A model generated the notes under the pieces. The model made no database searches, was not told where the DNA came from, and was given only the letters and a program-made list of their open reading frames with translations. From assembly GCA_951406725.2 (NCBI GenBank), contig OX597814.1, positions 180,172,001 to 180,236,000 of the forward strand: a DNA stretch of 64,000 nt. The letters are read 5' to 3'. This DNA is from Octopus vulgaris (Eukaryota). The translations under genes and the position numbers were made by a program. Shown one piece after another: positions 12,743 to 42,840 of the stretch. Position 1 is the first letter of the stretch. Each line of letters begins with the position of its first letter.

Positions 12743-12918
12743 TTTAATCCTAAATTAATGGTAATAAACGCTCTTATACATTTTGCCCCTGACGAATCTA
12801 TATTGAAAATATTAATCATCGTTTAAATATTAGAAATCATGCATTATATGGGTTTGGTTTCCGTTCTACTTATCTGATTTCATCTTGTATATAATATATA
12901 TTATTTCTTGATTTTTAG

Positions 12919-12997
12919 AGCAAGGGAACCTGGATTCAAGCGGTCATTTGTCCGTATCATCGTATCACATGATGGGGTGGTATTGTGGATACCTGTG
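12919..12997 (+). CDS. Cys-loop ligand-gated ion channel (nAChR-like) subunit, first exon found in window (extracellular beta5-beta6 region)
   Basis: Acceptor ttgatttttAG at 12917-18 and donor GTG|gtaagt at 12998. Encodes (x)AREPGFKRSFVRIIVSHDGVVLWIPV, matching the nAChR 'V..dG.V.W.P' motif. Phase-0 end joins the 19267 exon. Confidence 0.85.
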
Positions 12998-15873
12998 GTA
13001 AGTTTTTTTTTATACGAAACCAGTTGTTCTTTAGATTCTTTTACACCTTGTTCCTCCCACTTTCATCAAGTATGTATGTATACACACACACATACATAGA
13101 TACATACATACATATATATACATGTATGTATGTAATTAATGAGAGAGACGGAAGACGGAAGATATGAGAATTTTTAATGATCACTACACTACCAGGTGTA
13201 TACCATATGATTTATTAATTCATTGGACAGTAACTACATATATACACACACTTATATGTACTTATATACATAGAATCATGTATAAAGACGCCCACACCTA
13301 TTTATATATTTGTGTAGTGTTTTGCTTGCTAGTGCAACATATATTTAAAACTGGTAAGTGGTCTTCTTAAAATGTAAGGCTGATTCAGTTATAACATAAA
13401 ATATTAGTAATCGTGAAATATCTAACTACTATGCATGAGGGTGGAGAGTGTATCAGACAATCAATCGATTGGTGGTTCGCATTTTCTCACCAACAGTACA
13501 TAGTGTGTCCGTCGACGAAACACATAAGTCTCAAATTATTCAGTCAACATAATTATAAACATCTCAAGGTAGAAGGCTACTGACACTGTAACATTTTAAT
13601 TCGTAAAGCTGAGTGCCGCCCCCTCCATCCACCCCAAAGTAAATGGCTTGAGATATACACGAAGAAACGAATCCAAAGTAATCTTCCGTTCTTGTTGAGT
13701 CAAGAAGAAGGAGAAGGAGAAAGAGAAGAAGAAGAAGAAGAAGAAGAAGAAGAAGAAGAAGAAGAAGAAGAAGAAGAAGAAGAAGAAGAAGAAGAGAGTA
13801 GTAGTCACATTTTGTTTGTTTAACTTATTCCTTTATTAATTTAGTGGCGTTTATGTTCGCGTATGTATATGCACTTTTTTGTTTAGCCAGAGAGGCAAGG
13901 ACAGGGCCCGTGGATCTTCATTTTTGCAGGCCCTCTAATACTGATGAGAGAAAGAGAGTAAGTTATTCCCAAACCGATGAACTGGCCTGAATGCTTGCAT
14001 TTAGTCAACAGTGTGAACTCGGCTAAAAGTCCTTTATAACAAAGAGAGCTTTTAAACAGGGCGATGAATTCGGTCTACCACCAAAAGACTCAGAACACAA
14101 AACCTCAGATACATGTAGCATATCTCATCAACGTTACTTCGCAGCTTTGGACTGGCACTTCATTTTATCAACTACTAAAGTATAATAAGAAAAGTTGACC
14201 TCGGTGGAATTTGAACTCAGACGTTAAAAGGCCGCGTATTGGGATCGAACCTGGAGCTGTGTGGTAGTGAAAAGAACTTTTTAACTATATGGTCTTGCCG
14301 ATATCTGTATGAATCTCTTAAGCACAACAATTTCCGCGCTTCTTTGTTGACGTGAAACAAGTACCGCATCATCTGTAAGCGCCTAGCAATGCCCGAACCA
14401 TCTGTTAGCATAACACGAGTGTTGCATCACTTGTGAGCATAGATTGTAAGCTGATTGAGTCGTTAGCGTGAAATCTGAACTGCTTTAGATGTCAGGAATG
14501 AAATAATATGAGCACATCGAAATATACATAATGGTGTTGTTTGCCTTAAGGTATTTTGTATGAAATTATGTATTATAAAAGCCTGTTGAATACACATGTG
14601 ACTGTACATATGCGTATACATGCATTACCAAATATTACTCTCATCTTCTTAACCGAAAACTATTATGTCAATGCAAAAGAGCAATAAACCTTGGCTGTTA
14701 TTATTAGTAATTGCTTCAAGGTATTAAACTGGAAGAAATCTTTAGAATGTCGGGCAAAATCCATTGCGGTATTTCTTCTGGATCAAATCTTGCAATTTAT
14801 CTTTCTGGGCCCAATAAAATAAAGTACTATTCAAGTACTGAAGTCAACTCACCTCTTCCTACAAAACTTTTGGTCTTGTTCCTAAATCCGTTTGTCTGTT
14901 CTTATTTGTCCTCTCTATGTTTAGCCCTTGTGGGTAGTAAAGAAATAGGTCTTGTTCCTAAATTACAAATCATTTTAAGTGTAATGGATTGGCAGAATAT
15001 TTGCACGTTGGACAAAATGCTGTTAGGTATTCGATCTGACTGTTTACGTTCTGAATTCAAATTCCGCCAAGATCAATTTTGCCTTTCATCCTTTCGGGTT
15101 CAAAAAAAAAAAATACTAGTCACGTACTGAAATCGATAAAATCGACCAGCTCTTCCTCTCAAAATTGTTGAACTTTTTCCAAAAGGTGAAGCAATTAAAG
15201 TGACGAGCTGGCAGGATCGTTAACGCGTCGGGCAAAAATGCTTTCCGGTATTTCTTCCGGCTCTTTCATTCTGAGATCAAATCCTGCCTATGTCAGCTTT
15301 ACCTTTTATCTTTTCGGGATCTATAGAATAAAACACCAGTCAAGTATTGGGAGCGATGTAATCGATTACTTCTAAAGTTGTGGACCTCGTGCCACAAGTT
15401 GATAATATTATTATGATTACTACGTTGGTAGTTTAGAATTTGGTTAGTTTGCAACGCACAAGGTGTATCAACCGACATTCAAACAATTCCATAAAACCAC
15501 TGCTCTTGCATTACTACTTCATCTATTGATCTTTAAGGGTGAAAATCAATGTTGACCTCAGCGAGAAGTGAACTCAGAACCTAAGAAGTTTGAATAAATA
15601 ATACAAATCATTTCATTCAACACTCTAACACTGTTGGCATCTTACAACCTGTTGGTCTTATTGTTGCTGTGGTGATGGTCATCGTCGTCATTGCTGTTGT
15701 GGTTATTGTTGTCACTAAACCCCTGGTTAGCCCTGAGACATTTGTTATGATCATCCCGTGTGATTTCTTTCCTAAATACGAAGAACCAAGAAACAAAGTT
15801 TTCAATGCACCCCACCCTTTTTTTAGTGGTGATGTTACTGCAGTTGTACACGATGTATATATATATATATACA

Positions 15874-16252: not shown

Positions 16253-16270
16253 TATATATATATATATATA

Positions 16271-16981
16271 TAACAATAATAAATCTCTAAGCGAGGTATA
16301 AACAGTAACTGCTCTGTAATATAAGCGGGACCAGCCATCTGAATGTGGCTAGGGACAGGGCGGGGTGGTGGGGGTGTTACTGATGCATTTAGCCCCAGGC
16401 GACTATAGACGTCACCAGGAGAGCCGACACCATCACGGTGTCCTTGCTAGCCTGTAAAGGGAGATCAGCCTCCCCGAAGAAACGGATGTTACACACGGAC
16501 CGGTTTCGAGGTATTGCCTCTCGTCAGCGCATGGCAAACACCGTTCTTCGTTGAGGGACTTCCTCCACAGGCTAGAAATATATAGATTTTCACTGTAAAC
16601 ACAGTCACTGGCGTCGAAAATCTGTTCGATAACAATAATAAATCTCTAAGCGAGGTATAAACAGTAACTGCTCTGTAATATAGGCTGGTCCCGCTTATAT
16701 TACAGAGCAGTTACTGTTTATATTTCTAGCCTGTGGAGGAAGTCCCTCAACGAAGAACGGTGTTTGCCATGCGCTGACGAGAGGCAATACCTCGAAACCG
16801 GTCCGTGTGTAACATCCGTTTCTTCGGGGAGGCTGATCTCCCTTTACAGGCTAGCAAGGACACCGTGATGGTGTCGGCTCTCCTGGTGACGTCTATAGTC
16901 GCCTGGGGCTAAATGCATCAGTAACACCCCCACCACCCCGCCCTGTCCCTAGCCACATTCAGATGGCTGGTCCCGCTTATA
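16271..16981. mobile_element. Retrozyme/Penelope-pLTR-like fold-back element A (359-nt unit, partial tandem repeat, inverted arms) in (TA)n
   Basis: 53-nt direct repeat at 16271-16323 and 16630-16682. Segments 16683-16722 and ~16719-16981 are reverse complements of parts of the unit. Carries a hammerhead motif and is flanked by (TA)n. Confidence 0.8.
16768..16809 (+). ncRNA. Minimal type-I hammerhead ribozyme motif (mirror copy on - strand at ~16492-16533)
   Basis: CATGCG-CTGACGA-GAGG caata CCTC-GAA-ACCGGT-C^CGTGTG. Canonical core, 4-bp stem II, palindromic stem III, GUC triplet, stem I with two G-U pairs. Confidence 0.85.
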
Positions 16982-17049
16982 ATATATATATATATATATA
17001 AAGTATAATACACAGACGGCTATTTTAATCTAATATTGCTTCTCTTGCA

Positions 17050-17780
17050 TATATAGGATATATATTTAGCCAGGTACCTAATTGCAACACCGGTGGATTT
17101 TCAATCACTATTTCCCTACATTAGTAGCGCAATATATATCGATAACACAAAGGAGAGGAAAACAAATGAGTGTCTGTCAGAGACACGAAACCAGCCAGAT
17201 CCGAGGATCCACTTCTGAGGTTGTGGCAGAGATGTCAGAGAGGAGAGAAAACAGCACATGTGAGCAAGAGGCTGGAATGTGTTTTTAAGAGTGACTTCTT
17301 GCTAATCAAACGAATAGCTTTTCCTTAGTACTGGGCTGAGACAGCTGCATGTGTAGCAACAGCACTGAGCTGATGCTCTCCATTGTGAATTTCACCTGAG
17401 CCGTGCAGAAGGCAAAAGCGGAAACCTTAGATTTCCAATCTCTCACGGCAATCGAACTATCGACATTCTGAGAAAAAAATATGAACAATAGTGTCTACAT
17501 TGGCAAGAATCCAAAAGTGTCTTCGTAAGATATCAGTAATTTCGAACTCCGTGAGAAGTGAGAAATTTGAGAATCAAGGATCTCACTACCTAACGGAGAG
17601 TAGGGAAAGGTGAAGATGCTGTTAACCTGGCAGTCTTCATTTGAGTAAATAAACTGTGGATGCTACTGTAAAATGCTTGAAGTATCAGAGCATTGTAGTG
17701 ATTCAGTGTCTATTTCAGCCAAGATTGGAAGCTTGTCAATATAGCCTCTTTAAGTATAAAAAGTGACTCACGTTCTATCT
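17050..17780 (-). mobile_element. Highly degenerate CR1/Jockey-group LINE ORF2 C-terminal relic
   Basis: Minus-strand fragments AVATHAA..KAIRLI..QPLAH, with many stops and frameshifts. Confidence 0.4.
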
Positions 17781-18049
17781 CTCTCGTTGGAAATGACATG
17801 ATTATTATTACGAATACCAATTCAATCTTTGCTGTCACCAATTATAAATACCACATCGTCACTTTTGTGATGTAATCACTATCACTATCACCACTACCAT
17901 CACCATCATTGTTATCGCTGTAGTCGTAAGTAACCTTTGTAACAGTGACTACCACCACTACTGTCACGATCGTACCACCTCTAGTTACCACCAGCATCGC
18001 AACAATTTTAATCACCACCATCAACTATGCACTTGCTATCACTACCACA

Positions 18050-18081
<32 letters not shown>

Positions 18082-18643
18082 CACAACCACCCTCTCTACC
18101 ACTACCTATTTCTTTACTACTCACAAGGGGCTAAACATAAAGTGGACAAACAAGGACAGACAAACGGATTAAGTCGATTATATCGACCCCAGTGCGTAAC
18201 TGGTACTTTATTTGTCGACCTCGGCGGAATTTGAACTCAGAACGTAACGGCAGACGAAATACGGCTACGCATTTCGCCCGGCGTGCTAACGTTTCTGCCA
18301 GCTAGCCGCGTCTCTACCATCACTGTCGAAGGAATCTCTATGGGATCGCTCGACCTATTGAAAATAGCAGCCAAACTTCTCTGAAATCACATTCCACCGT
18401 TTTTAAAATACAAGACAGGTTCATTGGAAAACCTAATCCAGGACATGAATAAAACGAGATGGGCGTGAGTAGAACGCCTTTGACCATAATTCTACTTTAT
18501 TAGGAGTTCCAATGGGGCTGCAAATAAATTCTACTGCCATCGTATCGCTAACCATCAACCATAATTTAACCACTACATCGCCAACCACCAAAAACCATAC
18601 TTATCATAGATTATAACTGTTTCTTCATTATCTCTTATTTATG

Positions 18644-19209
18644 TTGGGTTGTCCGGAAAGTTCGTGCCGATTTATAGTAGCTTACCTTTTGACTTATTTT
18701 AGAACATGGTTGAGTCCATGAAATAGGATTTGACTTCACCTCCATTTACAGCACAGTTTAAGCTATCTTTTCGTGGAAGAAAGTTTATGTTCCTATAAAA
18801 TGTGTTAATTTTGTAACCCTTTAAAAAGGAAGATAAGAAAGTTCATTTTCGGCACTTGATGTTTTGGGAACCAGACAAAAATTGCTGCAGCTCGGCTGGG
18901 ATGTGTTACCCCACCCTCCATATTCACCAGATATTGCTCCTTCGGATTTCCACTTATTCAGGTCTCTGCAGAATAGTCTTAATAGTAGAAATTTCAATTC
19001 TTTGGATGACGTAAAAAGATACCTTGATGAATTCTTTGTCATGAAACTACCCCAGTTCTGGGAAGAGGGTATTTTCAAGTTAAAGGAAAGATGGAGACGC
19101 ATTGGGCAACAAAATGGTTCATATTTGGTTGGTTAAAAATGTAATGGCAAGTATTTATTGGCCTTTTTCTTTCCTTTAAAAATCGGCACGAACTTTCCGG
19201 ACAACCCAA
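18644..19209 (+). mobile_element. Internally deleted mariner element with transposase C-terminal fragment
   Basis: TIRs TTGGGTTGTCCGGAAAGTTCGTGCCGATTT and reverse complement. ORF 18864..19136 has LGWDVLPHPPYSPDIAPSDFHLF (mariner YSPDLAP.D motif). Confidence 0.92.
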
Positions 19210-19266
19210 TATTTATTATTATATTTTCGTATTTATTTTTACTATATTTCTATTCTCTTTTCGCAG

Positions 19267-19636
19267 ACCAAATACGAAGTGCAATGCTTTCCGAACACCA
19301 CTTTCTTCCCGTTCGACATCCAGATCTGCTCCTTGATACTAGGATCAGAGATTTACAACATTCGCCACATGGACATGAATTTTGTCAACCGACCCATCCC
19401 TTCATGGAACATTGACAAACATCCGCTGTGGAAGGTGGAACGCATAACTACCGAGAAGATCCTCAATAAGTGTTCAGGGTGTGACGTACCCTATGTTAAC
19501 CTGAAGATAAACTTTCACTTCTCACGTCATGCGACTGTTCCTTTCTACACGTTCGTGCTGCCGTGTTTTCTGCTGTCTTCTCTCAGCCTTGTCCTTTTCT
19601 TGTTACCATCAGATTTTGCCGACAAAGTCACTTTAG
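19267..19636 (+). CDS. nAChR-like subunit exon: Cys-loop, loops B/F/C, M1 and start of M2
   Basis: Acceptor ctcttttcgcAG, donor G|gtcagt. Encodes TKYEVQ-C-FPNTTFFPFDIQI-C (C-x13-C with FPFD), then M1 FYTFVLPCFLLSSLSLVLFLLP, then SDFADKVTL. Overlaps ORF 19279..19644. Confidence 0.95.
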
Positions 19637-21221
19637 GTCAGTAAATCATGGCACATTTCCTGATGCCATCTTTTATATTGCTTCTGTTTGATACGTGCAT
19701 GTTAATTTTGGTACCAGTAAGTCATTAAAGGCGGCGAGCTAGCAGAACCGCAAGCATGCTGAACAAAATACTTAGGGGCATTTCATCTAGTTTTGAGTTC
19801 AAATTTCGCCGAAATCAACTTTGCCTTTCATCCTTTCGAGGTCGATAACATAAGTGCCACTTCAAAACTGGGGCCGATGTAATCAACTTATCCACTCCTC
19901 ACGAAAACGCTGGCCTTGCGCCAAAATTTGAACCCAGTAGGTCATTATTATAGGCAACGAGCTAGCAGAATCGTTAGCGTGTCGGTCAAAATGTTTAACG
20001 GATTTTGTTTTCTGCCTTTTACATTCCAAGTTCAAATTCCACCGTAGTTTCCTTTGCCTTTCATACTCTCGGGGTCGATAAAATAAGTACCAGATAAGCA
20101 CTTGGGTCAATGTAACCAATTAGACCCATCACTCAATATTTCAGGTCTTGTGCCTGTAGTAGAAAGAAACATGTCATTATCAACATCTTGTAACATTGTT
20201 TTTTGCACGTTATGCTCAGATAACTGTTACCTCTATCTGATTTGTTATTGCTAAAAACAATGTACTTGACTGTATGCCTGTCTGGTATCTTCATGTGTAT
20301 ATCATTGCCTTTCATTAACGCGCTATTAACCAACTCCCTGATACGTGGCTGCTGATGGGCTATCAATACGTTAACACCAGTTAGCTACTGTCCGTCAGTT
20401 ATCAATACATTCTAACCAACCGGCCTTTGGCAATAATGTATTGATAACAGACATTGTGAGGAAAATGTGTTGATTATTGCAACAAAGAGAAGGAAATCTA
20501 TCTATTGGTGAACTGAACCCGGAATAAATTGGTGCACGCAAGATATCACAAACAGTTTACACAATGGTCTGTCTACAATGACAGGTTTGGAGACTGGATT
20601 CTGTTCCAGGACGGAGCATTTCCAAAATGATCACCAACAGCTTGGTAAACTTGTTAATGTATAATAAAATGTTCTGTCAAGAAATTCTATGAAACACCAG
20701 CAAGGGATTTGAAGCCATGATCCACGAGAATGTAAGTGCAATGTAATTCTCGATTAAGCAGAAGCATTGTATAATTGAGAAAGTTTGTGGGTGGAGCTTC
20801 GTCGTTTGATTAATTACCTGTGCGTTGTAAGATTACTCGATCGAGGCTCATCTGGGGCTACACGAGAACAACGACAACGTAGACACTTGATCATCTCACC
20901 ATTACAAGAAAACAACAATCCTATAGCTTTATCAGGAAAAAAAAAACAAATTGGTTTATTAATGAGTATCATTTGTGTAACGAATTTGAAAAGTCATTAA
21001 GAAACCAGATAAAACGCTTTGGATTACATCGACCCCAGTGCGTAACTGGTACTTATCTAATCGACCCCGGCAGAATTTGAACTCAGAACGTAACAGCAGA
21101 CGAAATACCGCTAGGCATTTCGCCCGGCGCGCTAACGCTTCTGCCAGCTCGCCGCCTTATTTCACGTTGTTCCAGCCTACTTAGCTAAAAATAAATACCA
21201 GCCAATTACTGCTGAAGCACC

Positions 21222-21317
<96 letters not shown>

Positions 21318-21564
21318 GCTGTCATGCCCTTAATCTTCCATTGGTTAAAGGTAGGAAGGCCGAAAGGATGCCTAAATATTTTCGGTAATGTATAGGCACC
21401 TAAAGCAATTAGCAAAAGCTTGATACACGCTGCCAAGTCGTACACGCTTGAGAATGAGGGTTATGGTTTTGCTAAAAAGTACTTTTGATTTTGACATCAG
21501 ACCACAAATTTTGTAATAAGGATGTAATTAATTCTATTGTACTTCAATATTTGACTGGTACTTA

Positions 21565-21891
21565 GGATCTTTTCACTTTGACCGGCAGATTTGAAAAATA
21601 ATTTTTTGTAACTAAACAATTTAAACTTCGTATACTGGTAGAATGTGTCACATAAAACATCTTTTTCCCTTGGCAGTAATTGTATTTACCTCAATAGACG
21701 TCATCGCTTGGTTGAAATTGCCGAAATACGAAAAATTTAACAAGAAATAGCTTACAAACTACAGAGTTTTCTCAAGGACGCCAAGAGAATAAGATGTTTT
21801 ATGTGACACATTCTACCAGTATACGAAGTTTAAAAGTGTTTAATTACAAAAAATTATTTTTTAAAATCTGCCGGTCAAAGTGAAAAGATCC
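21565..21891. mobile_element. Palindromic MITE with GG-starting TIRs and 8-bp TSD (Merlin-like)
   Basis: ~110-bp TIRs GGATCTTTTCACTTTGACCGGCAG.../...CTGCCGGTCAAAGTGAAAAGATCC. TSD GGTACTTA at 21557-64 and 21892-99. Inserted in a SINE relic. Confidence 0.85.
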
Positions 21892-22103
21892 GGTACTTAT
21901 TTTATCGACCAATGGGAAAGTAATAATATCACCAAGTATGATTTGAACTCAGAATGTAAATATGTGTCAATAAAGACCATTAGATGGCAACGATGACAAC
22001 GAAGACGACGAGGAGGAGGAGGAGGAACATGATGATGATGATGATGATGACATTGGTAATGGCGATGATGAAGTATTATTATATTCATTTGTCTTTTATC
22101 TAG

Positions 22104-22187
22104 GCTTCGGATTATTCATGGCGTTCTTCGTCCTTTTATTGTATCTCGTATCAGTTCTGCCACCTTCACAAGAGCTTCCTTATTTTG
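22104..22187 (+). CDS. nAChR-like subunit exon: M2 pore helix and M2-M3 loop
   Basis: Acceptor gtcttttatctAG, donor G|gtaagt, 84 nt, phase 1-1. Encodes (G)FGLFMAFFVLLLYLVSVLPPSQELPYF(G). Not in the ORF track. Confidence 0.92.
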
Positions 22188-23058
22188 GTAAGTTACTCCT
22201 TTGAAGAATGTCTTTTGAAAACGTTTTCAGATTGGCGTCCTTCCCAACCAATTCAGTGTAACTGCTCTATTAGCGTAACCTCTATGTGTGTGTGTGTATC
22301 AGTGCGTTTGTATGTGTGCGTATGTACGTATGTACCTACATATGTATGGACGTATGTATGTATGTATGTACTATAAATGCATCCATGTGCATAAATACAA
22401 ATACATGTGTGTGTGCATGTATGGGTATATATAAATGCATGCATGCCTTTGTATGCATGCATGTATGTATGTATGATTAAATACATATACGTGTGTGTGT
22501 GCATGTATGGGTATATATAAATGCAAGTATGCCTTTGTATGTATGCATGCATGTATGTATGCATGCATGTATGTATGCATGCATATATGTATGTATGTAT
22601 GTATGTATTCATGTATGTATGTGTGTGTGTGTGTCCATGCATGCATACGTATGTATGTAAGTGAATCAAGAAGAAGGTAAGGATTGAAGTGTTGACCTGC
22701 ATTGGCCATTAATTCAGAACATCATTAAATATAATCATTCCAATGTAAAGAGACTTATGGTGATTTATGTTGGCAGGAATAAGTGTAGTAAAAAGGGAAA
22801 AAAAGTCAGGTATATCCATGTGCTGTAGTGTCAGTATGGACGATGGCTTTTGGTTAATTTAATTAAATATCAAGCCAAGAGGTTGACAGTTCGTATTGTG
22901 ACTCCGAGGAACCTGTACGTGGTCAAGCAGTCTTCTAGAAATTGTAGTCAAATCTCACTCAATTCATACTTATGAGTCTTAAATGAAAATGTGATTACTG
23001 AATACGTTTATATATTTGTTTTGCAAGATTTTTCATGTGAAACCGTTTGTTGAAACAG

Positions 23059-23458
23059 ATATTGTTGTATTTAGGAATGGTCATTTTGCCAGTTTAGCCA
23101 ATAGAAACACACGCACTATATATTTGGTGTTACTTTGCTTCAGCGTTATTTATTTTTTACATTAAGCTTAATCTTATTTCGGCCAGAGTTCTTTCGTCAC
23201 ACTCCTGTGACCGCATCAGTGGTCCTTTGCTTTCTTCTTTCTTATTTGTGTGTCTCTCCTTACCAACGGTCAGCCATTTTGTATTTTGTATTTCTATTGT
23301 ATGTGTCTTCATTTGCGCATGCGTATATCTCTATGTGCGTCTATGTTTAGTAGTCTGTGGGGGGGATGTCTGTAATATTTGTATCTCCTGTTTATATACA
23401 TTCGTGTAATTTGTTTTTGTTTATTTATTTTTTATTTTGTTCATGTGCTTACACACAC

Positions 23459-23501
<43 letters not shown>

Positions 23502-23520
23502 GTATTATTATGTATGTATG

Positions 23521-23567
<47 letters not shown>

Positions 23568-23759
23568 TAATAATAATAAAATGTTTATAGTTATTTACTG
23601 ATGCGGTCACAGGAGTGTGACGAAAGAACTCTGGCCGAAATAAGATTAAGATTAATGTGAAAAATAAATAACGCTGAAGCAAAGTAACACCAAATATATA
23701 GTGCGTGTATTTTTTATTGGCTAAACTGGCAAAATGACCATTCCTAAATACAACAATAT
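23059..23759. mobile_element. Penelope-terminus-like fold-back element C with hammerhead-like motif
   Basis: ~160-bp inverted arms at 23059-23220 and 23597-23759 around a spacer with (TTA)n/(TAA)n. Arm contains CTGATGCG-GTCACA ggag TGTGAC-GAAA-GAACTC-TGG. Confidence 0.6.
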
Positions 23760-23826
23760 GATTATTGAATAGTTCTACATACTTACAAAGTGATCGATCA
23801 CAGATGGGCTGCCTTTTATCATTGTA

Positions 23827-24214
23827 CTAGAGGTATCGCCCGGCGTTGCTCGGGTTTGTTTCGATCCTTTAGAATTGGAATTTTTGAAAAGTAAAACTTT
23901 TGCATTATGTAGCTTGTTATTCTCTTTAAGTGAACATTTTTCTGGTTGAAATACACCGAAAAATGGCGACACAGCAGTCAAAAAATCGGAAAAAATCGGG
24001 ATTTTCATAGAAAAAAGCACATTTTGGTGTAAATAATTTTTGGTGTTAACATGGTCCGATTTGAATTTTATCTTCTACGGAATGAAGAGCAAGCCTTCTT
24101 CTATCATACTCTCAATTTTGGTTAACTTGCGCTGCAGGGTCTCGGAGGAGATAGTGTTAGTTGAAGGCTACCAAACCTGCCATACACAGACAAATTCAGC
24201 TTTATATATATAGA
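23827..24214 (-). mobile_element. Non-autonomous Helitron
   Basis: Minus strand A|TCTATATATATAAAGCTG...CCCGAGCAACGCCGGGCGATACCT-CTAG|T. Confidence 0.82.
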
Positions 24215-25169
24215 TTGTAACTCTTAGGATTCTCTACGTAGTCAAGAAATCTTCTAAAAATTGCAGTCAAGTCTCCCTCAATTCATACCGATGAGCCTTA
24301 AAAGAAAATTGGTATATTGAATAATTTAGTTCTACATAGCAACAAAGTGACTGAACACAGATAGGGTGTCTTTTATTATAGATAAATTCGGTTAGGGTTC
24401 GTCTGAGTTTCATTAATAAAACGCAATACTGTAATAATGGTTTCAAACTTTGGCACAAGGCCATCAATTTCAGGGAAAGGGGCAAGTCGATTATATTGAC
24501 TCCAGTGCTCAACTAGTACTCATTTTATTAACCATGAAAGAATGAAAAGCAAAGTCGATCTCGGCAGAATTTGAGCTCAGAACACGAAGACGGACGAAAT
24601 GCCTATTTCTTTACTACCCACAAGGGGCTAAACACAGAGAGGACAAACAAGGACAGACAAACGGATTAAGTCGATTATATCGACCCCAGTGCGTAACTGG
24701 TACTTATTTAATTGACTCCGAAAGGTTGAAAGGCAAAGTCGACCTCAGCGGAATTTGAACTCAGAACACAAAGACAAACGAAATACCACTAAGCGTTTTG
24801 CTCGGCGCGGTAACGATTTTGCCGGCTTGCTGCCTTACAACATTGTAATAATGAAAAAGTTTATACATGTTCACTGGCTGGATTTCGCAAGCAAAACTTT
24901 CTCATATCACACCCTACGGCCACATGTTTAAAAAGATACGTTAGTGGAAATAGGATAATACAGTCCTTGCTAAACTATGCCTAAAAAATTAACATAGGCG
25001 AATGAGTGGCTGTGTGGTAAGTAGCTTGCTTACCAACCACATGGTTCGGGGTTCAGTCCCACTGCGTGGCACCTTGGGCAAGTGTCTTCTATTATAGCCT
25101 CGGGCCGACCAAAACCTTGTGAGTGGATTTGGTAGACGGAAACTGAAAGAAGCCCGTCGTATATATGTG

Positions 25170-25220
<51 letters not shown>

Positions 25221-25469
25221 TTGTGTGTCTGTGTTTATCCCCTCAACATCGTGGATGGAGTAATAGAGAAACTATCGATGGGTTATTAAAAAGTTCAAAT
25301 TCACCAAAAGTGTTTCGGTGTCTTTGCTGAACTCACCTCCAGCCTATATTGTTTTAGTTCTCTTAGATGTAGGGAATAGGTTGACAGTTGAAAATATTAA
25401 CTGCCAGAGTCCGTTATCTTAACTAGGGAAAGACATTGTTCCTCTGCTTAACGCCATAAAGCGAGGATG

Positions 25470-25552
<83 letters not shown>

Positions 25553-26043
25553 CGTGTGCGTGTGTGTGTGTTGTGTTGTGTCTAGGAAATAAAAAATCTT
25601 GCAAATCAGATACATGTATGTACAGTATGTATGTATGTCATTATTCAGTTTATTTCAAGATTTCTTACCAATAGAGAAATAACCGGTTTCTAGCTTGATC
25701 CAAGTCTCCTTCATTGGAATTTCAACATCGACAACAGGGTATTTTTATTTGTATGTATGTATTATGTATGTATGTATGTATGTATGTATGTATGTATGTA
25801 TGTATGTATGTATGTATGTATGTATGTATATATTTATGTATGTACGTATGTATGTATAATACATATACATAAATTCATCCGGCAGTGGGACCTTGGGTCA
25901 GGAATTTCAAAGTTTCGAGGAATGTGGAATGATCTCACTGTTATTCCCAGGTTTACTGGGAATAAGTTTTCAAACAAGTGCAAATAAAATTTTAATCATA
26001 CACACATACACATGTGTGTGTGTGTGTGTATGTGTTTACATAT

Positions 26044-26089
<46 letters not shown>

Positions 26090-26092
<3 letters not shown>

Positions 26093-26721
26093 CAAAAGGG
26101 ACATTAGCCATTTGAATGTGGCTAGGGACAGGGCAGGGCGGTGGGGGTGTTACTGATGCATTTAGCCCCAGGCGATCATCAACGTCACCAGATAGGCTTG
26201 ACACCATCACGGTGTCCTCTATCCTGCAAAGAGAGATCATTCCCCGAAGAAGCGGATGCCACATACGGACCCAGGTTTCAAGGTGTTTGTCTCTCGTCAA
26301 CGTATGGTAGGCACCGCCCCTCGACGAACGACTCTCTGTGCAGGATATTTATATATAGATTTTCACGTAAATACATTTACTGATTTCGAAAATCTGTTCG
26401 ACAGCAATAATAATTCTCTAAACGAGATATAGACAGTAACTGCTCCATAACAAAAGGGACATACGTTGACGAGAGGCAAACACCTTGAAACCTGGGTCCG
26501 TATGTGGCATCCGCTTCTTCGGGGAATGATCTCCCTTTGCAGGATAGAGGACACCGTGATGGTGTCAAGCCTATCTGGTGACGTTGATGATCGCCTGGGG
26601 CTAAATGCATCAGTAACACCCCCACCGCCCTGCCCTGTCCCTAGCCACATTCAAATGGCTAATGTCCCTTTTGTTATGGAGCAGTTACTGTCTATATCTC
26701 GTTTAGAGAATTATTATTGCT
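26090..26721. mobile_element. Retrozyme/Penelope-pLTR-like fold-back element B (358-nt unit plus inverted arm) in (TA)n; paralogue of element A
   Basis: TAACAAAAGGGACAT repeats at 26090 and 26448. Segment 26460-26721 is the reverse complement and reads across the unit junction. Shares long blocks with element A (gaatgtggctagggacagggc, gttactgatgcatttagccccaggcga, gacaccatcacggtgtcc). Confidence 0.8.
26460..26504 (+). ncRNA. Minimal type-I hammerhead motif, U3 variant (mirror copy on - strand at ~26261-26306)
   Basis: CATACG-TTGACGA-GAGG caaaca CCTT-GAA-ACCTGGGT-C^CGTATG. Perfect 6-bp stem I; stem III self-complementary with G-U pairs. Confidence 0.78.
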
Positions 26722-39731: not shown

Positions 39732-40489
39732 TATGATTCAAATATATTGAAAAATATATGGTTCAAATATATTGAACCAGCCTGTTTTCTCATATGGTTT
39801 TGCATATGGTTCTGATAAGATGAAATGATATTAATGTTAGTACCAGGTCAGTTATGATAAACCAGATCTATAATCAAAAGTGCTCTAGCTATATCATTAC
39901 TGTTTTGTTTTGTTCTTTGTTTCATTTATTTATTTGTATATTTTTGTTAAGCAAACTACACTGTCCAATATGTTCTTTCTTTTCAAAGCATTAGGATATT
40001 ATTTTATAATGATTTGCTTATTTCAAATACTCACAGCGGCTTACTTGAATCATAAGTGGATCAGTTATTCACTCTCATCAGTCTACCCTTCTTTGCAGAA
40101 TCCATAAATACATTTTCTTTCTTTTATCGTTTATTGTATTGTACTTACTATATCTAGAATATTTTCGAAACAAAAAAATTTGTCCTTCTCAATTTATTAC
40201 ATTAGCCAACAAATTACAACACTGCAGTGTGTCTGTCATGTCAACAGTTTGTTTTAAATGTTTTATTTTTACTACTTACCTTTACCAATAGATTTATTTA
40301 TTTAATTACTTTTGTCTTTTGTATTTATCAGTTGTATATATACAATGCCAACATTTATTTTATGTATTGGGAATCCATTATTGTAACCTATAATTCCTTA
40401 ATGCAATATATTTGTAACAATCAAATACAAAGCCTCACTAATCTAATTTCTTTCTAAAGTATTTCTATACTTCTGTTTCTATTTCACAG

Positions 40490-40900
40490 ATTATGTTTGA
40501 TTTCTTTGCACCAATACTTTGTTTGAAGGACATGGTGAAAAAGAGCAGATCGCAATATTTGATTGCAGAAGAGAACAGCTTCCAGCTCAGCATCAATAAT
40601 TATTGTTCACTACCAAAAATACAGAACCAAGGAGAAGTTGACAAAGAACACCTCTGTGAAGATGACTTACCAGAAAGTCATCCGAGATCAGATTACCAAC
40701 AAATAGAAGCTGATATTGCTAATATCAGAAGAATTGCCAGTGACTATACAAAGAAACTCAATGAAGCAGAATCAGAGAAAAAAGTATTAGATGAGTGGAA
40801 ACGGTTAGCAATGGTGCTCAATTGTTTGTTTTTTGTTTGTTATTTGTTCCTTTTTGGTGGTTCGCTCATTGCTTATTTTCTGTTGGCTTACATCAAATAA
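40490..40900 (+). CDS. nAChR-like subunit terminal exon: MX, intracellular loop, MA helix, M4, stop
   Basis: Acceptor ttctatttcacAG, phase 0. Encodes IMFDFFAPILCLKD...EWKRLAMVLNCLFFVCYLFLFGGSLIAYFLLAYIK*, with the EWK..A.V pre-M4 motif. ORF 40493..40900; AATAAA overlaps the stop at 40896-40901. Confidence 0.9.
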   Translation: MMFDFFAPILCLKDMVKKSRSQYLIAEENSFQLSINNYCSLPKIQNQGEVDKEHLCEDDLPESHPRSDYQQIEADIANIRRIASDYTKKLNEAESEKKVLDEWKRLAMVLNCLFFVCYLFLFGGSLIAYFLLAYIK

Positions 40901-41914: not shown

Positions 41915-42840
41915 TTGGGTCATCCCATAAGTAATGTGTTTTTTTAAATATTTCTTTTATATTTCAAAATTAAGATGAACAAAATTCTTTTTTAATCTAA
42001 TATATACTCTCCTTCATTTTTACAATGCTCTTCCATCTATCCAGTAGAATTGCAAGGCCCCTCTTCCAAAATTCACTTGTCCATGACAAAAAATACTCCT
42101 CCAATACTGTTCTGACCTCATCTACAAAATTCATATTTTTTCCATCCAAATGATTTTGAAGACTGTGGAATAGGTGATAGTCAGATGGGGCAATGTCTGG
42201 CAAATATGTTGAGTGAGGCATTATTTCCCATTCAAACTGCTCCAGTCTTTGGAATGTCATCCTTGCTCTATGTGGACCAGCATTATCCTGATGGAAGAAC
42301 ATCATTCATTTTGAAACCAAAGATGGTTGTTTTTCTTCTAGCACTGATTTGAATGACTGGTTGAATGACCAAATCCAAACCTCTCTGTTAGTTCCTCAAT
42401 GGTTATGAATGGAATTTTGTTCCACCAGGGTTTGCAGGACCTCTTCGTTGAGCTCAACAAGATCTTTCAGGATGAGGTTTGTCTTCTAATCTGGAGTTTC
42501 TGGCTCAGGATTTCTGGAACCACTGTTGACACTGCTTTACACTTATTGTCTGATCTCCATATACTGCATTAATATTCCTTGCACTTTCCATTGTGTTGTT
42601 GACTTTACTGAACTCATAAAGCAAAATATGCTGAATATGCTCCTTTGTCACTTCCATTATAGCTTTGAAAAAATAAATGTTAAGCCAAACTGCACTCTTC
42701 AAAACTTGCACTAAGAATAATGACAAAGTAAAATTACTACCTGCTTTTATAGCAAGTTGATGCAGGTAGTTTATCCTGTCCCCCTCTGACTTTTATTTCA
42801 TGCAATTGAAAAAAAACGTATTATTTATGGAATGACCCAA
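41915..42840 (-). mobile_element. Degenerate mariner element (second family)
   Basis: TIRs TTGGGTCATCCCATAAGTAAT / ATTATTTATGGAATGACCCAA. Minus-strand ORFs MEVTKEHIQHILLYEF... (HTH) and FHQDNAGPH...HSTYLPDIAPSDYHLF. Confidence 0.9.

What the first reader, a model, noticed from the sequence alone, without database searches (positions are those of the whole stretch)
16271..26721. Two ~358-nt hammerhead-carrying, circularly permuted retrozyme-like elements inside an ion-channel gene
Seen: elements A (16271-16981) and B (26090-26721) are homologous but diverged, with unit periods of 359 and 358 nt. They start at different points of the unit, run slightly more than one unit, then fold back as an inverted copy; both sit in (TA)n. 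B's inverted arm reads through the unit junction. Each has a minimal type-I hammerhead whose helices vary while pairing is kept: stem I CATGCG/CGTGTG vs CATACG/CGTATG, stem II GAGG/CCTC vs GAGG/CCTT, stem III ACCGGT vs ACCTGGGT. Other hairpins are conserved too (GACACC..GGTGTC, AGCCA..TGGCT, AGATTTTC..GAAAATCT). Established: Penelope-like element pLTRs and animal non-LTR retrozymes carry such minimal dimer-acting hammerheads, and retrozymes make small circular RNAs. Inference: a cephalopod family of non-coding, self-cleaving elements copied from a circular or tandem RNA and mobilised by a Penelope-type RT; I cannot tell whether it is already described.
Basis: partly seen in the sequence, partly recalled or inferred. 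Interest (0 to 1): 0.85.

Follow-up and report, generated by a model that had tools for sequence, protein, structure and literature searches.

The report
Penelope-copied hammerhead retrozymes, two-armed insertions
These are two young copies of a protein-free jumping repeat with a predicted self-cutting RNA motif, and the shape of its many genomic insertions, including one half made of a Penelope retrotransposon, suggests that a Penelope enzyme copies a likely circular RNA into both ends of a DNA break.

Summary
A (359-nt unit) and B (358-nt unit) are 81.5% alike, two-armed and head-to-head, in (TA)n. They belong to a dispersed non-coding family: 1,035 hammerhead-motif and 8,596 mid-unit-motif matches in the genome.

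The different start points are not random permutation. Outer ends fall at two fixed sites about 45 nt apart, one per arm (71 of 85 two-armed insertions; never the same site twice). This is the known Penelope (PLE) 'tail'.

Arms run up to 5.6 units and share variants. Rare variants carried by every pass of an insertion are skewed to A>G in RNA sense (17 vs 3 T>C), which points to one edited, probably circular, template.

One insertion joins subfamily-A units to a young PLE with a 1,312-aa ORF and the same end rule and target. No unit-bearing PLE ORF was found among six PLE families sampled. B's core is UUGACGA (U3·G8), so its cleavage may be weak. Cleavage, expression and circles were not shown.

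Verdict: a new member of the animal non-LTR retrozymes. The insertion anatomy supports the proposed PLE-driven rolling-circle route.

The parts
16270..16694 (-). Element A, arm 1: 425 nt (1.2 units) in ribozyme sense on the - strand; RNA 3' end at the long start site (unit position 228 from the cut) at 16270
   Evidence: L001 1500-1924
16270..16316 (-). A: 47-nt Penelope-type tail between the long and short start sites, present at the left end only
16492..16533 (-). A: type I hammerhead (stem I CATGCG/CGTGTG, core CTGACGA, stem II GAGG/CCTC, palindromic ACCGGT); predicted cut after 16498
16683..16722 (+). A: 40-nt turn-back segment at the arm junction (unit 162-201), followed by a jump to unit 275
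16719..16984 (+). Element A, arm 2: 266 nt; RNA 3' end at the short start site (unit 181)
16768..16809 (+). A: second hammerhead; predicted cut 16803/16804
26090..26462 (-). Element B, arm 1: 373 nt; RNA 3' end at the short start site (unit 178-179) at 26090
   Evidence: L061 1501-1873
26262..26306 (-). B: hammerhead with variant core TTGACGA (U3·G8), stem II GAGA/CCTT; predicted cut 26268/26267
26460..26721 (+). Element B, arm 2: 262 nt; RNA 3' end at the long start site (unit 223)
26460..26504 (+). B: second hammerhead (TTGACGA, GAGG/CCTT, ACCTGGGT); predicted cut 26498/26499
26677..26721 (+). B: 45-nt Penelope-type tail, present at the right end only
23003..23759 (.). Two-armed 3' fragment of the candidate partner PLE (1,312-aa ORF family): long end left, short end right, about 12-bp target duplication. 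A separate insertion, not part of A or B
19180..19644 (+). Host gene coding stretch: Cys-loop ligand-gated channel, end of ligand-binding domain to M2
   Evidence: PF02931 E 2e-9; nicotinic receptor chains, E 8e-12
40442..40900 (+). Likely last exon of the same gene (M4 region); B lies between the two stretches
   Evidence: PF02932 E 4e-4, below the curated cut-off

Best explanation
A and B are separate insertions of two subfamilies of a protein-free, about 355-nt hammerhead repeat (an animal non-LTR retrozyme) that is likely copied into (TA)n by the reverse transcriptase-endonuclease of a Penelope-like element from a probably circular unit RNA. Shown: dispersed copies; head-to-head arms; two fixed outer ends, one per arm; 12-13-bp target duplications; arms longer than one unit; one template variant per insertion. 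Inferred: tandem transcripts are cut by dimeric hammerheads and closed into circles; the PLE protein makes a staggered break, primes one strand at the short site and the other at the long site, runs round the template, and the two cDNAs join by microhomology. The young 1,312-aa PLE family is the best candidate driver.
For: Ends. 71 of 85 two-armed insertions have one short plus one long end; none has the same site twice; 14 have one end elsewhere. In the set picked only by the hammerhead motif, 29 of 29 B loci have an end at one of the two sites; so do 22 of 23 C loci. PMC11167929 shows that such a tail lies between two RT start sites of a PLE in vitro. Target. (TA)n flanks; 8 non-microsatellite target duplications are all 12-13 bp. 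One template per insertion. At diagnostic sites the two arms differ at 24 of 501 (A) and 36 of 1,267 (B) positions, against 27.6% and 25.9% for shuffled arm pairs. Segments exceed one unit in 47 of 68 (A), 59 of 125 (B) and 19 of 38 (C) cases, up to 5.6 units. Inner ends are not enriched at the cut site (7 of 215, 6 expected). Rare variants carried by every pass are 17 A>G vs 3 T>C (p 0.001; 11 vs 2 loci), while single-pass variants are 21 vs 21. Locus L277 has 10 A>G changes, three of them in all three passes and four in both passes. Partner. One insertion has A units from the short site as one arm and a 5'-truncated PLE ending at its long site as the other, joined by CTGC. That PLE family is young (96 scored copies, 98-100%), inserts in (TA)n, has two ends 53 nt apart used one per arm in 6 of 6 loci with both ends in view, and shows an about 12-bp duplication in this window. 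Ribozyme. 94% of cells pair; 23 of 73 pairs covary; helix III is self-complementary in subfamilies with different sequences.
Against: No cleavage, circle or transcript was observed. B and three other subfamily types carry U3·G8 and several have a weak base of stem II, yet they spread (77 of 114 matches are the B type); PMC11167929 found hammerhead mutants did not impair PLE insertion in vitro. Some diagnostic variants are mixed within an insertion (A 33 of 161, B 54 of 326, non-CpG), and 13 of 67 two-armed loci differ between arms at two or more diagnostic sites. The arms are closer to each other than to the nearest other locus in only 19 of 74 loci. Editing is site-specific, so a heavily edited linear multimer could mimic a circle. 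The chimera is a single event copied to four places. The unit shows no sequence likeness to the terminal repeat of that PLE or five other PLE families, so the driver is not proven. The covariation structure was derived from the same 10 related units.
Confidence: 0.7

Rival explanations
1. Same Penelope-driven insertion, but the template is an uncut linear multimer transcribed from tandem loci; the hammerhead is weak or dispensable and no circle is needed.
For: U3·G8 cores are common and mobile. PMC11167929 found unprocessed RNA to be the dominant substrate for a PLE in vitro. About a fifth of shared variants are mixed within insertions. Tandem loci of 5-6 units exist as possible sources.
Against: The same A>G changes occur in every pass and both arms. 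Private variants are fixed in all 4-5 passes at L219 and L229. Hammerhead stems and the helix III palindrome are kept by compensatory change across subfamilies 62-94% alike.
Confidence: 0.2
2. The units are ordinary terminal-repeat (pLTR) fragments of an autonomous PLE not sampled here.
For: The architecture is that of PLE 3' fragments, such as window 23003-23759. Only 150 of 6,136 GIY-YIG candidates were scored. bioRxiv 10.64898/2026.07.22.740005 found 24 of 57 Xenopus retrozyme families homologous to Repbase elements, nearly all PLEs.
Against: Arms pass from unit straight into unit. Among the 131 retrozyme loci checked, the inner flank matched a PLE only in the opposite-strand chimera (4 loci) plus one 36-nt match. 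Long-period hammerhead pairs had no PLE ORF between them. A profile of 10 units found no PLE terminal repeat at E<1.
Confidence: 0.06
3. A satellite-like repeat that lands once, then grows by local duplication and DNA fold-back, the amplification model of bioRxiv 10.64898/2026.07.22.740005 and the self-priming idea of PMC3846280.
For: A's junction contains a short turn-back. Some larger local duplications contain the unit.
Against: A fold-back copy would end at the same site as its template, but no same-site pair was seen among 85 two-armed loci. Inner ends within 25 nt of each other occur in 12 of 70 loci, 10 expected by chance. The strand-biased A>G skew needs an RNA step.
Confidence: 0.04

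Closest known systems
Metazoan non-LTR retrozymes (PMC7229834, passages and Discussion read; bioRxiv 10.64898/2026.07.22.740005, parts 1-3 of 5 read)
   Same: Non-coding 353-360-nt units (mussel 350-390 bp, axolotl 330-350 bp), one type I hammerhead per unit, monomers to short tandems, highly paired predicted circle (z about -4.5 against mononucleotide shuffles), coexisting PLEs.
   Different: The parts read do not describe inverted arms, fixed two-site ends, target duplications, editing scars or a retrozyme-PLE chimera ('inverted' occurs 0 times in PMC7229834). They infer the PLE link from shared motifs, co-occurrence and pLTR homology. GC is 46-50% here against <45% stated there. Circles were shown there, not here. 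No pLTR homology was found here.
EN+ Penelope-like elements (PMC11167929 parts 1-2 of 4; bioRxiv 10.1101/2021.04.23.441226 and PMC3846280, passages)
   Same: Partial tandems, inverted 5'-truncated arm, one-sided tail, (TA)n preference, short target duplications, hammerhead upstream of the RT start sites.
   Different: No ORF. The tail is 44-47 nt against the 30-40 bp described. The unit closes on itself instead of leading into an ORF.
PLE minimal hammerheads (PMC4209133, parts 1-2 of 4)
   Same: Type I, palindromic short helix III predicted to act as a dimer; that paper already proposes circular RNA templates giving more-than-unit insertions.
   Different: Helix I is 6 bp and extends into a covarying rod; helix II is 4 bp. 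The core variant here is U3·G8, not the U3-A8 covariation described there.

Membership tests
Animal non-LTR retrozyme | Short (150-450 bp) non-coding unit in dispersed monomers and tandems | tested here: met
   353-360-nt units, up to 5.6 per arm, on many contigs
Animal non-LTR retrozyme | One type I hammerhead per unit with conserved core and covarying helices | tested here: met
   Met for A; B has a U3·G8 core. Stem I 98% paired with 2 of 6 pairs covarying; stem II 95% paired with none covarying on both sides
Animal non-LTR retrozyme | No attached ORF | tested here: met
   No in-line PLE ORF at 131 loci (400-nt flanks against six PLE families) or in 20 longer regions; not genome-wide
Animal non-LTR retrozyme | Self-cleavage in vitro | not testable with these tools
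   Bench assay needed; only 1 of 9 Xenopus dimers cleaved in the 2026 preprint
Animal non-LTR retrozyme | Expression as circular monomer RNA | tested here: inconclusive
   Only contigs of unrecorded type were available; they cannot show ends or circles. Indirect genomic support
Insertion by EN+ PLE machinery | Inverted 5'-truncated arm and one-sided tail between two RT start sites | tested here: met
   71 of 85 two-armed loci have short plus long ends
Insertion by EN+ PLE machinery | AT-rich or (TA)n target with short duplication | tested here: met
   (TA)n flanks; 8 duplications of 12-13 bp
Autonomous PLE | RT plus GIY-YIG ORF between pLTRs | tested here: not met
   No such ORF in A or B or in line at other copies
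pLTR derivative of a known resident PLE | Sequence homology to the pLTR of an autonomous family | tested here: inconclusive
   None to six sampled families; other families were not sampled

The most novel reading that the evidence does not exclude
Each two-armed insertion is written in one event by a Penelope RT dimer rolling round a single, sometimes A-to-I-edited, RNA circle from two fixed start sites. The resident 1,312-aa PLE is the driver and can load its own mRNA on one strand and a retrozyme circle on the other, although the two RNAs share no sequence. That would be genomic proof of the proposed retrozyme life cycle, with a named enzyme-substrate pair and a route by which RNA edits become DNA.
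Probability: 0.4. Interest if true: 0.75.

Novelty: new member of a known kind. Interest (0 to 1): 0.52.

Why it matters
How animal retrozymes get back into DNA has been proposed but not shown in the papers read, and the PLE tandem/inverted structure is still unexplained. These young copies give countable footprints: one start site per strand, one template per insertion, RNA-type changes fixed in DNA. They also give a candidate enzyme with intact copies, which makes the mechanism testable in an existing in vitro PLE assay. The location in or near an ion-channel gene looks incidental: the family is abundant and targets (TA)n.

Tried and rejected
Rfam scan of the window: no hammerhead among the 150 matches listed; microsatellite miRNA look-alikes dominate.

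Expression: no RNA holder listed. Contigs of four runs guessed to be RNA cover the unit and some span the cut site, but they cannot show strand, ends or circles. This is used neither for nor against.

An 18-nt match between the long end and PLE locus L094 was rejected as a microsatellite chance match. Unit-like stretches beside PLE fragments in L121, L127 and L131 are separate insertions of other subfamilies, not pLTRs. Hammerhead pairs with 0.9-3.6-kb spacing had no PLE ORF between them and look like local duplications. A pattern meant to reach one further subfamily found nothing.

The nearest-neighbour test of arm identity was weak (19 of 74), because later mutation swamps it. The arm-concordance test could not be run for subfamily C: too few diagnostic sites, and the script stopped. 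Pfam does not recognise the 1,312-aa ORF at E 0.01; its PLE label rests on BLASTP to a resident RT plus GIY-YIG protein (E 2e-11) and on motifs I recall.

The putative upstream exon at 12878-13099 got no hit, so whether A is intronic stays open. A shared helix near the start sites of the PLE and the retrozyme was considered; it has no covariation support on the PLE side and is not claimed.

Literature searches gave no paper describing this family or these footprints. The supplement of PMC7229834 could not be read and the preprint supplements are closed; either could list this animal group.
Full report
Observation. Both elements are in the sequence as described. I number the unit from the predicted hammerhead cut. 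A is a 425-nt arm on the - strand whose RNA 3' end is unit position 228, a 40-nt turn-back, and a 266-nt + arm ending at 181. B is a 373-nt - arm ending at 178-179 and a 262-nt + arm ending at 223. The arms face head-to-head with RNA 3' ends outward into (TA)n. A's hammerhead has the full core; B's reads UUGACGA, and its - arm copy has GAGA in stem II. B lies between two coding stretches of a Cys-loop channel gene. A's intronic position is only inferred.

Family. The 2.8-Gb genome holds 134 and 154 matches to units A and B among only 40 scored candidates each, of 2,440 and 1,804. A broader hammerhead pattern matches 1,035 times and a mid-unit motif 8,596 times, with 0 for the reversed controls; these are motif counts, not loci. 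Full units fall into types 62-94% alike, 352-360 nt long apart from one mis-cut row, and an older abundant type with a CUGAUGA core also occurs. In 10 representative units 94% of cells pair and 23 of 73 pairs change on both sides, against 12.4 in shuffles (0 of 500). The structure came from the same related sequences, so this is support, not a probability. Stem I extends into a long covarying rod. Helix III is self-complementary in different sequences (ACCGGT, ACCTGGGT, ACTCGAGT, ACTGCAGT, ACCATGGT), as expected for dimeric hammerheads (PMC4209133).

Ends. I parsed 131 loci (41 A, 37 B picked by unit match, 29 B picked by the hammerhead motif, 24 C). I dropped L186, whose junction repeats L181, and trimmed neighbouring separate pieces from four loci. 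Of 85 two-armed insertions, 71 have one end at the short site and one at the long site, 14 have one end elsewhere, and none uses the same site twice. The A set and the first B set are biased towards one end by the query. The motif-picked sets are not, and there 29 of 29 and 22 of 23 loci end at one of the two sites. This matches the one-sided tail of PLE insertions (bioRxiv 10.1101/2021.04.23.441226, PMC3846280; passages read), which PMC11167929 (main text read) maps to two RT start sites. Eight target duplications outside microsatellites are 12-13 bp; one further 29-nt hit was microsatellite. Of 70 simple junctions, 43 overlap by 1 nt or more, 15 are blunt and 12 have inserted bases. Inner ends are scattered: 12 of 70 pairs lie within 25 nt of each other (10 expected) and 7 of 215 lie at the cut site (6 expected). 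This argues against simple fold-back and against run-off from a cut linear monomer.

Template. Segments longer than one unit are common, up to 5.6 units. The A and first B sets were selected for unit-length matches, but 19 of 38 segments in the motif-picked C set are also longer than one unit. After removing three duplicates of one locus (127 loci), the two arms disagree at 4.8% (A) and 2.8% (B) of diagnostic positions against 27.6% and 25.9% for shuffled pairs. Thirteen of 67 loci disagree at two or more sites, and about a fifth of shared variants are mixed within an insertion, so the rule has exceptions. Rare variants present in every pass of an insertion are 17 A>G versus 3 T>C in ribozyme sense (p 0.001), whereas single-pass variants are symmetric, 21 versus 21. 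L277 carries 10 A>G changes, three in all three passes and four in both. The simplest reading is one edited monomer copied repeatedly by both primers, that is, a circle. That A>G reflects A-to-I editing is established knowledge that I recall, not a call result. Site-specific editing of a linear multimer remains possible. I saw the A>G list; the formal test came after I had read earlier scan notes with the same idea.

Driver. The genome has several EN+ PLE families, some with intact ORFs. None of six sampled shares sequence with the unit, and no copy sits in line with an ORF. Four loci share one junction in which A units from the short site are joined head-to-head, through CTGC, to a 5'-truncated PLE that ends at its own long site in (TA)n. 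Three of them are long duplications and the fourth shares flanks, so this is one event. The PLE has a 1,312-aa ORF, 96 scored copies at 98-100% identity, likeness to a resident RT plus GIY-YIG protein but no Pfam hit. Its two ends lie 127 and about 180 nt past a hammerhead-like motif and are used one per arm in 6 of 6 loci with both ends in view. A two-armed fragment of it lies in this window at 23003-23759 with an about 12-bp duplication. It is the best candidate, on one event.

Against. No cleavage or RNA was seen. U3·G8 subfamilies are young and mobile, and PMC11167929 found the hammerhead dispensable for insertion in vitro, so cleavage may be weak or not needed at every round.

Comparison and verdict. 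The element works like, and meets the testable genomic features of, animal non-LTR retrozymes (PMC7229834, passages and Discussion; bioRxiv 10.64898/2026.07.22.740005, parts 1-3 of 5). Both papers name PLEs as likely drivers, and PMC4209133 (parts 1-2 of 4) already proposes circular templates. Six searches found no description of this family or of the two-site, chimera or editing footprints, but supplements were not readable. Several earlier notes of this scan reach the same model; they are not independent evidence, and none of the eight shown mentions the chimera in the lines displayed. It is a new member of a known kind with useful mechanistic evidence; interest 0.52.

Noticed in passing
L301 528-3440 (G000:C28, about 8.357-8.360 Mb; duplicates L302, L303, L304): Chimeric insertion: retrozyme A units as one arm, a 5'-truncated young PLE as the other, obeying the short-plus-long end rule.
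   Followed up: yes
window 23003-23759: Two-armed 3' fragment of the same PLE family with a hammerhead-like motif (CTGATGC core) and an about 12-bp target duplication, inserted in another repeat.
   Followed up: partly
L277 1189-1949: B-type insertion with 10 A>G changes in RNA sense, shared between arms and passes where covered.
   Followed up: yes
L335 2263-6198: Intact 1,312-aa PLE ORF with a long Asn-rich segment before the RT, reminiscent of the N-rich inserts in rotifer PLEs (PMC3846280); no Pfam hit.
   Followed up: partly
L141-L168 (many): Older, very abundant subfamily with CUGAUGA core, TCGCGA-type helix III and two ends about 55 nt apart, often outside (TA)n.
   Followed up: partly
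window 16657-16663 with 16369-16375 (alignment A1 columns 28-34 and 326-332): Nearly invariant 7-bp helix GTTACTG/CAGTAAC beside the short start site, with one compensatory change; a candidate RT recognition element.
   Followed up: partly
L296 1283-1642: Subfamily with a CCGACGA hammerhead core.
   Followed up: no
L138, L139: A second young PLE family with a 781-aa RT plus GIY-YIG ORF and a TTGATAA (U3-A8) hammerhead-like motif (seen in L109).
   Followed up: partly
L304 5214-5901 (- strand): PLE endonuclease fragment with a CxCx5C linker, the Hydra-clade signature of bioRxiv 10.1101/2021.04.23.441226.
   Followed up: no
window 21565-21891: Another inverted-repeat element (arms 21565-21674 and 21780-21891), MITE-like.
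   Followed up: no
window 18837-19136 and 41997-42305: ORFs that look like mariner-type transposase fragments (recalled motif; no Pfam hit for the first).
   Followed up: no
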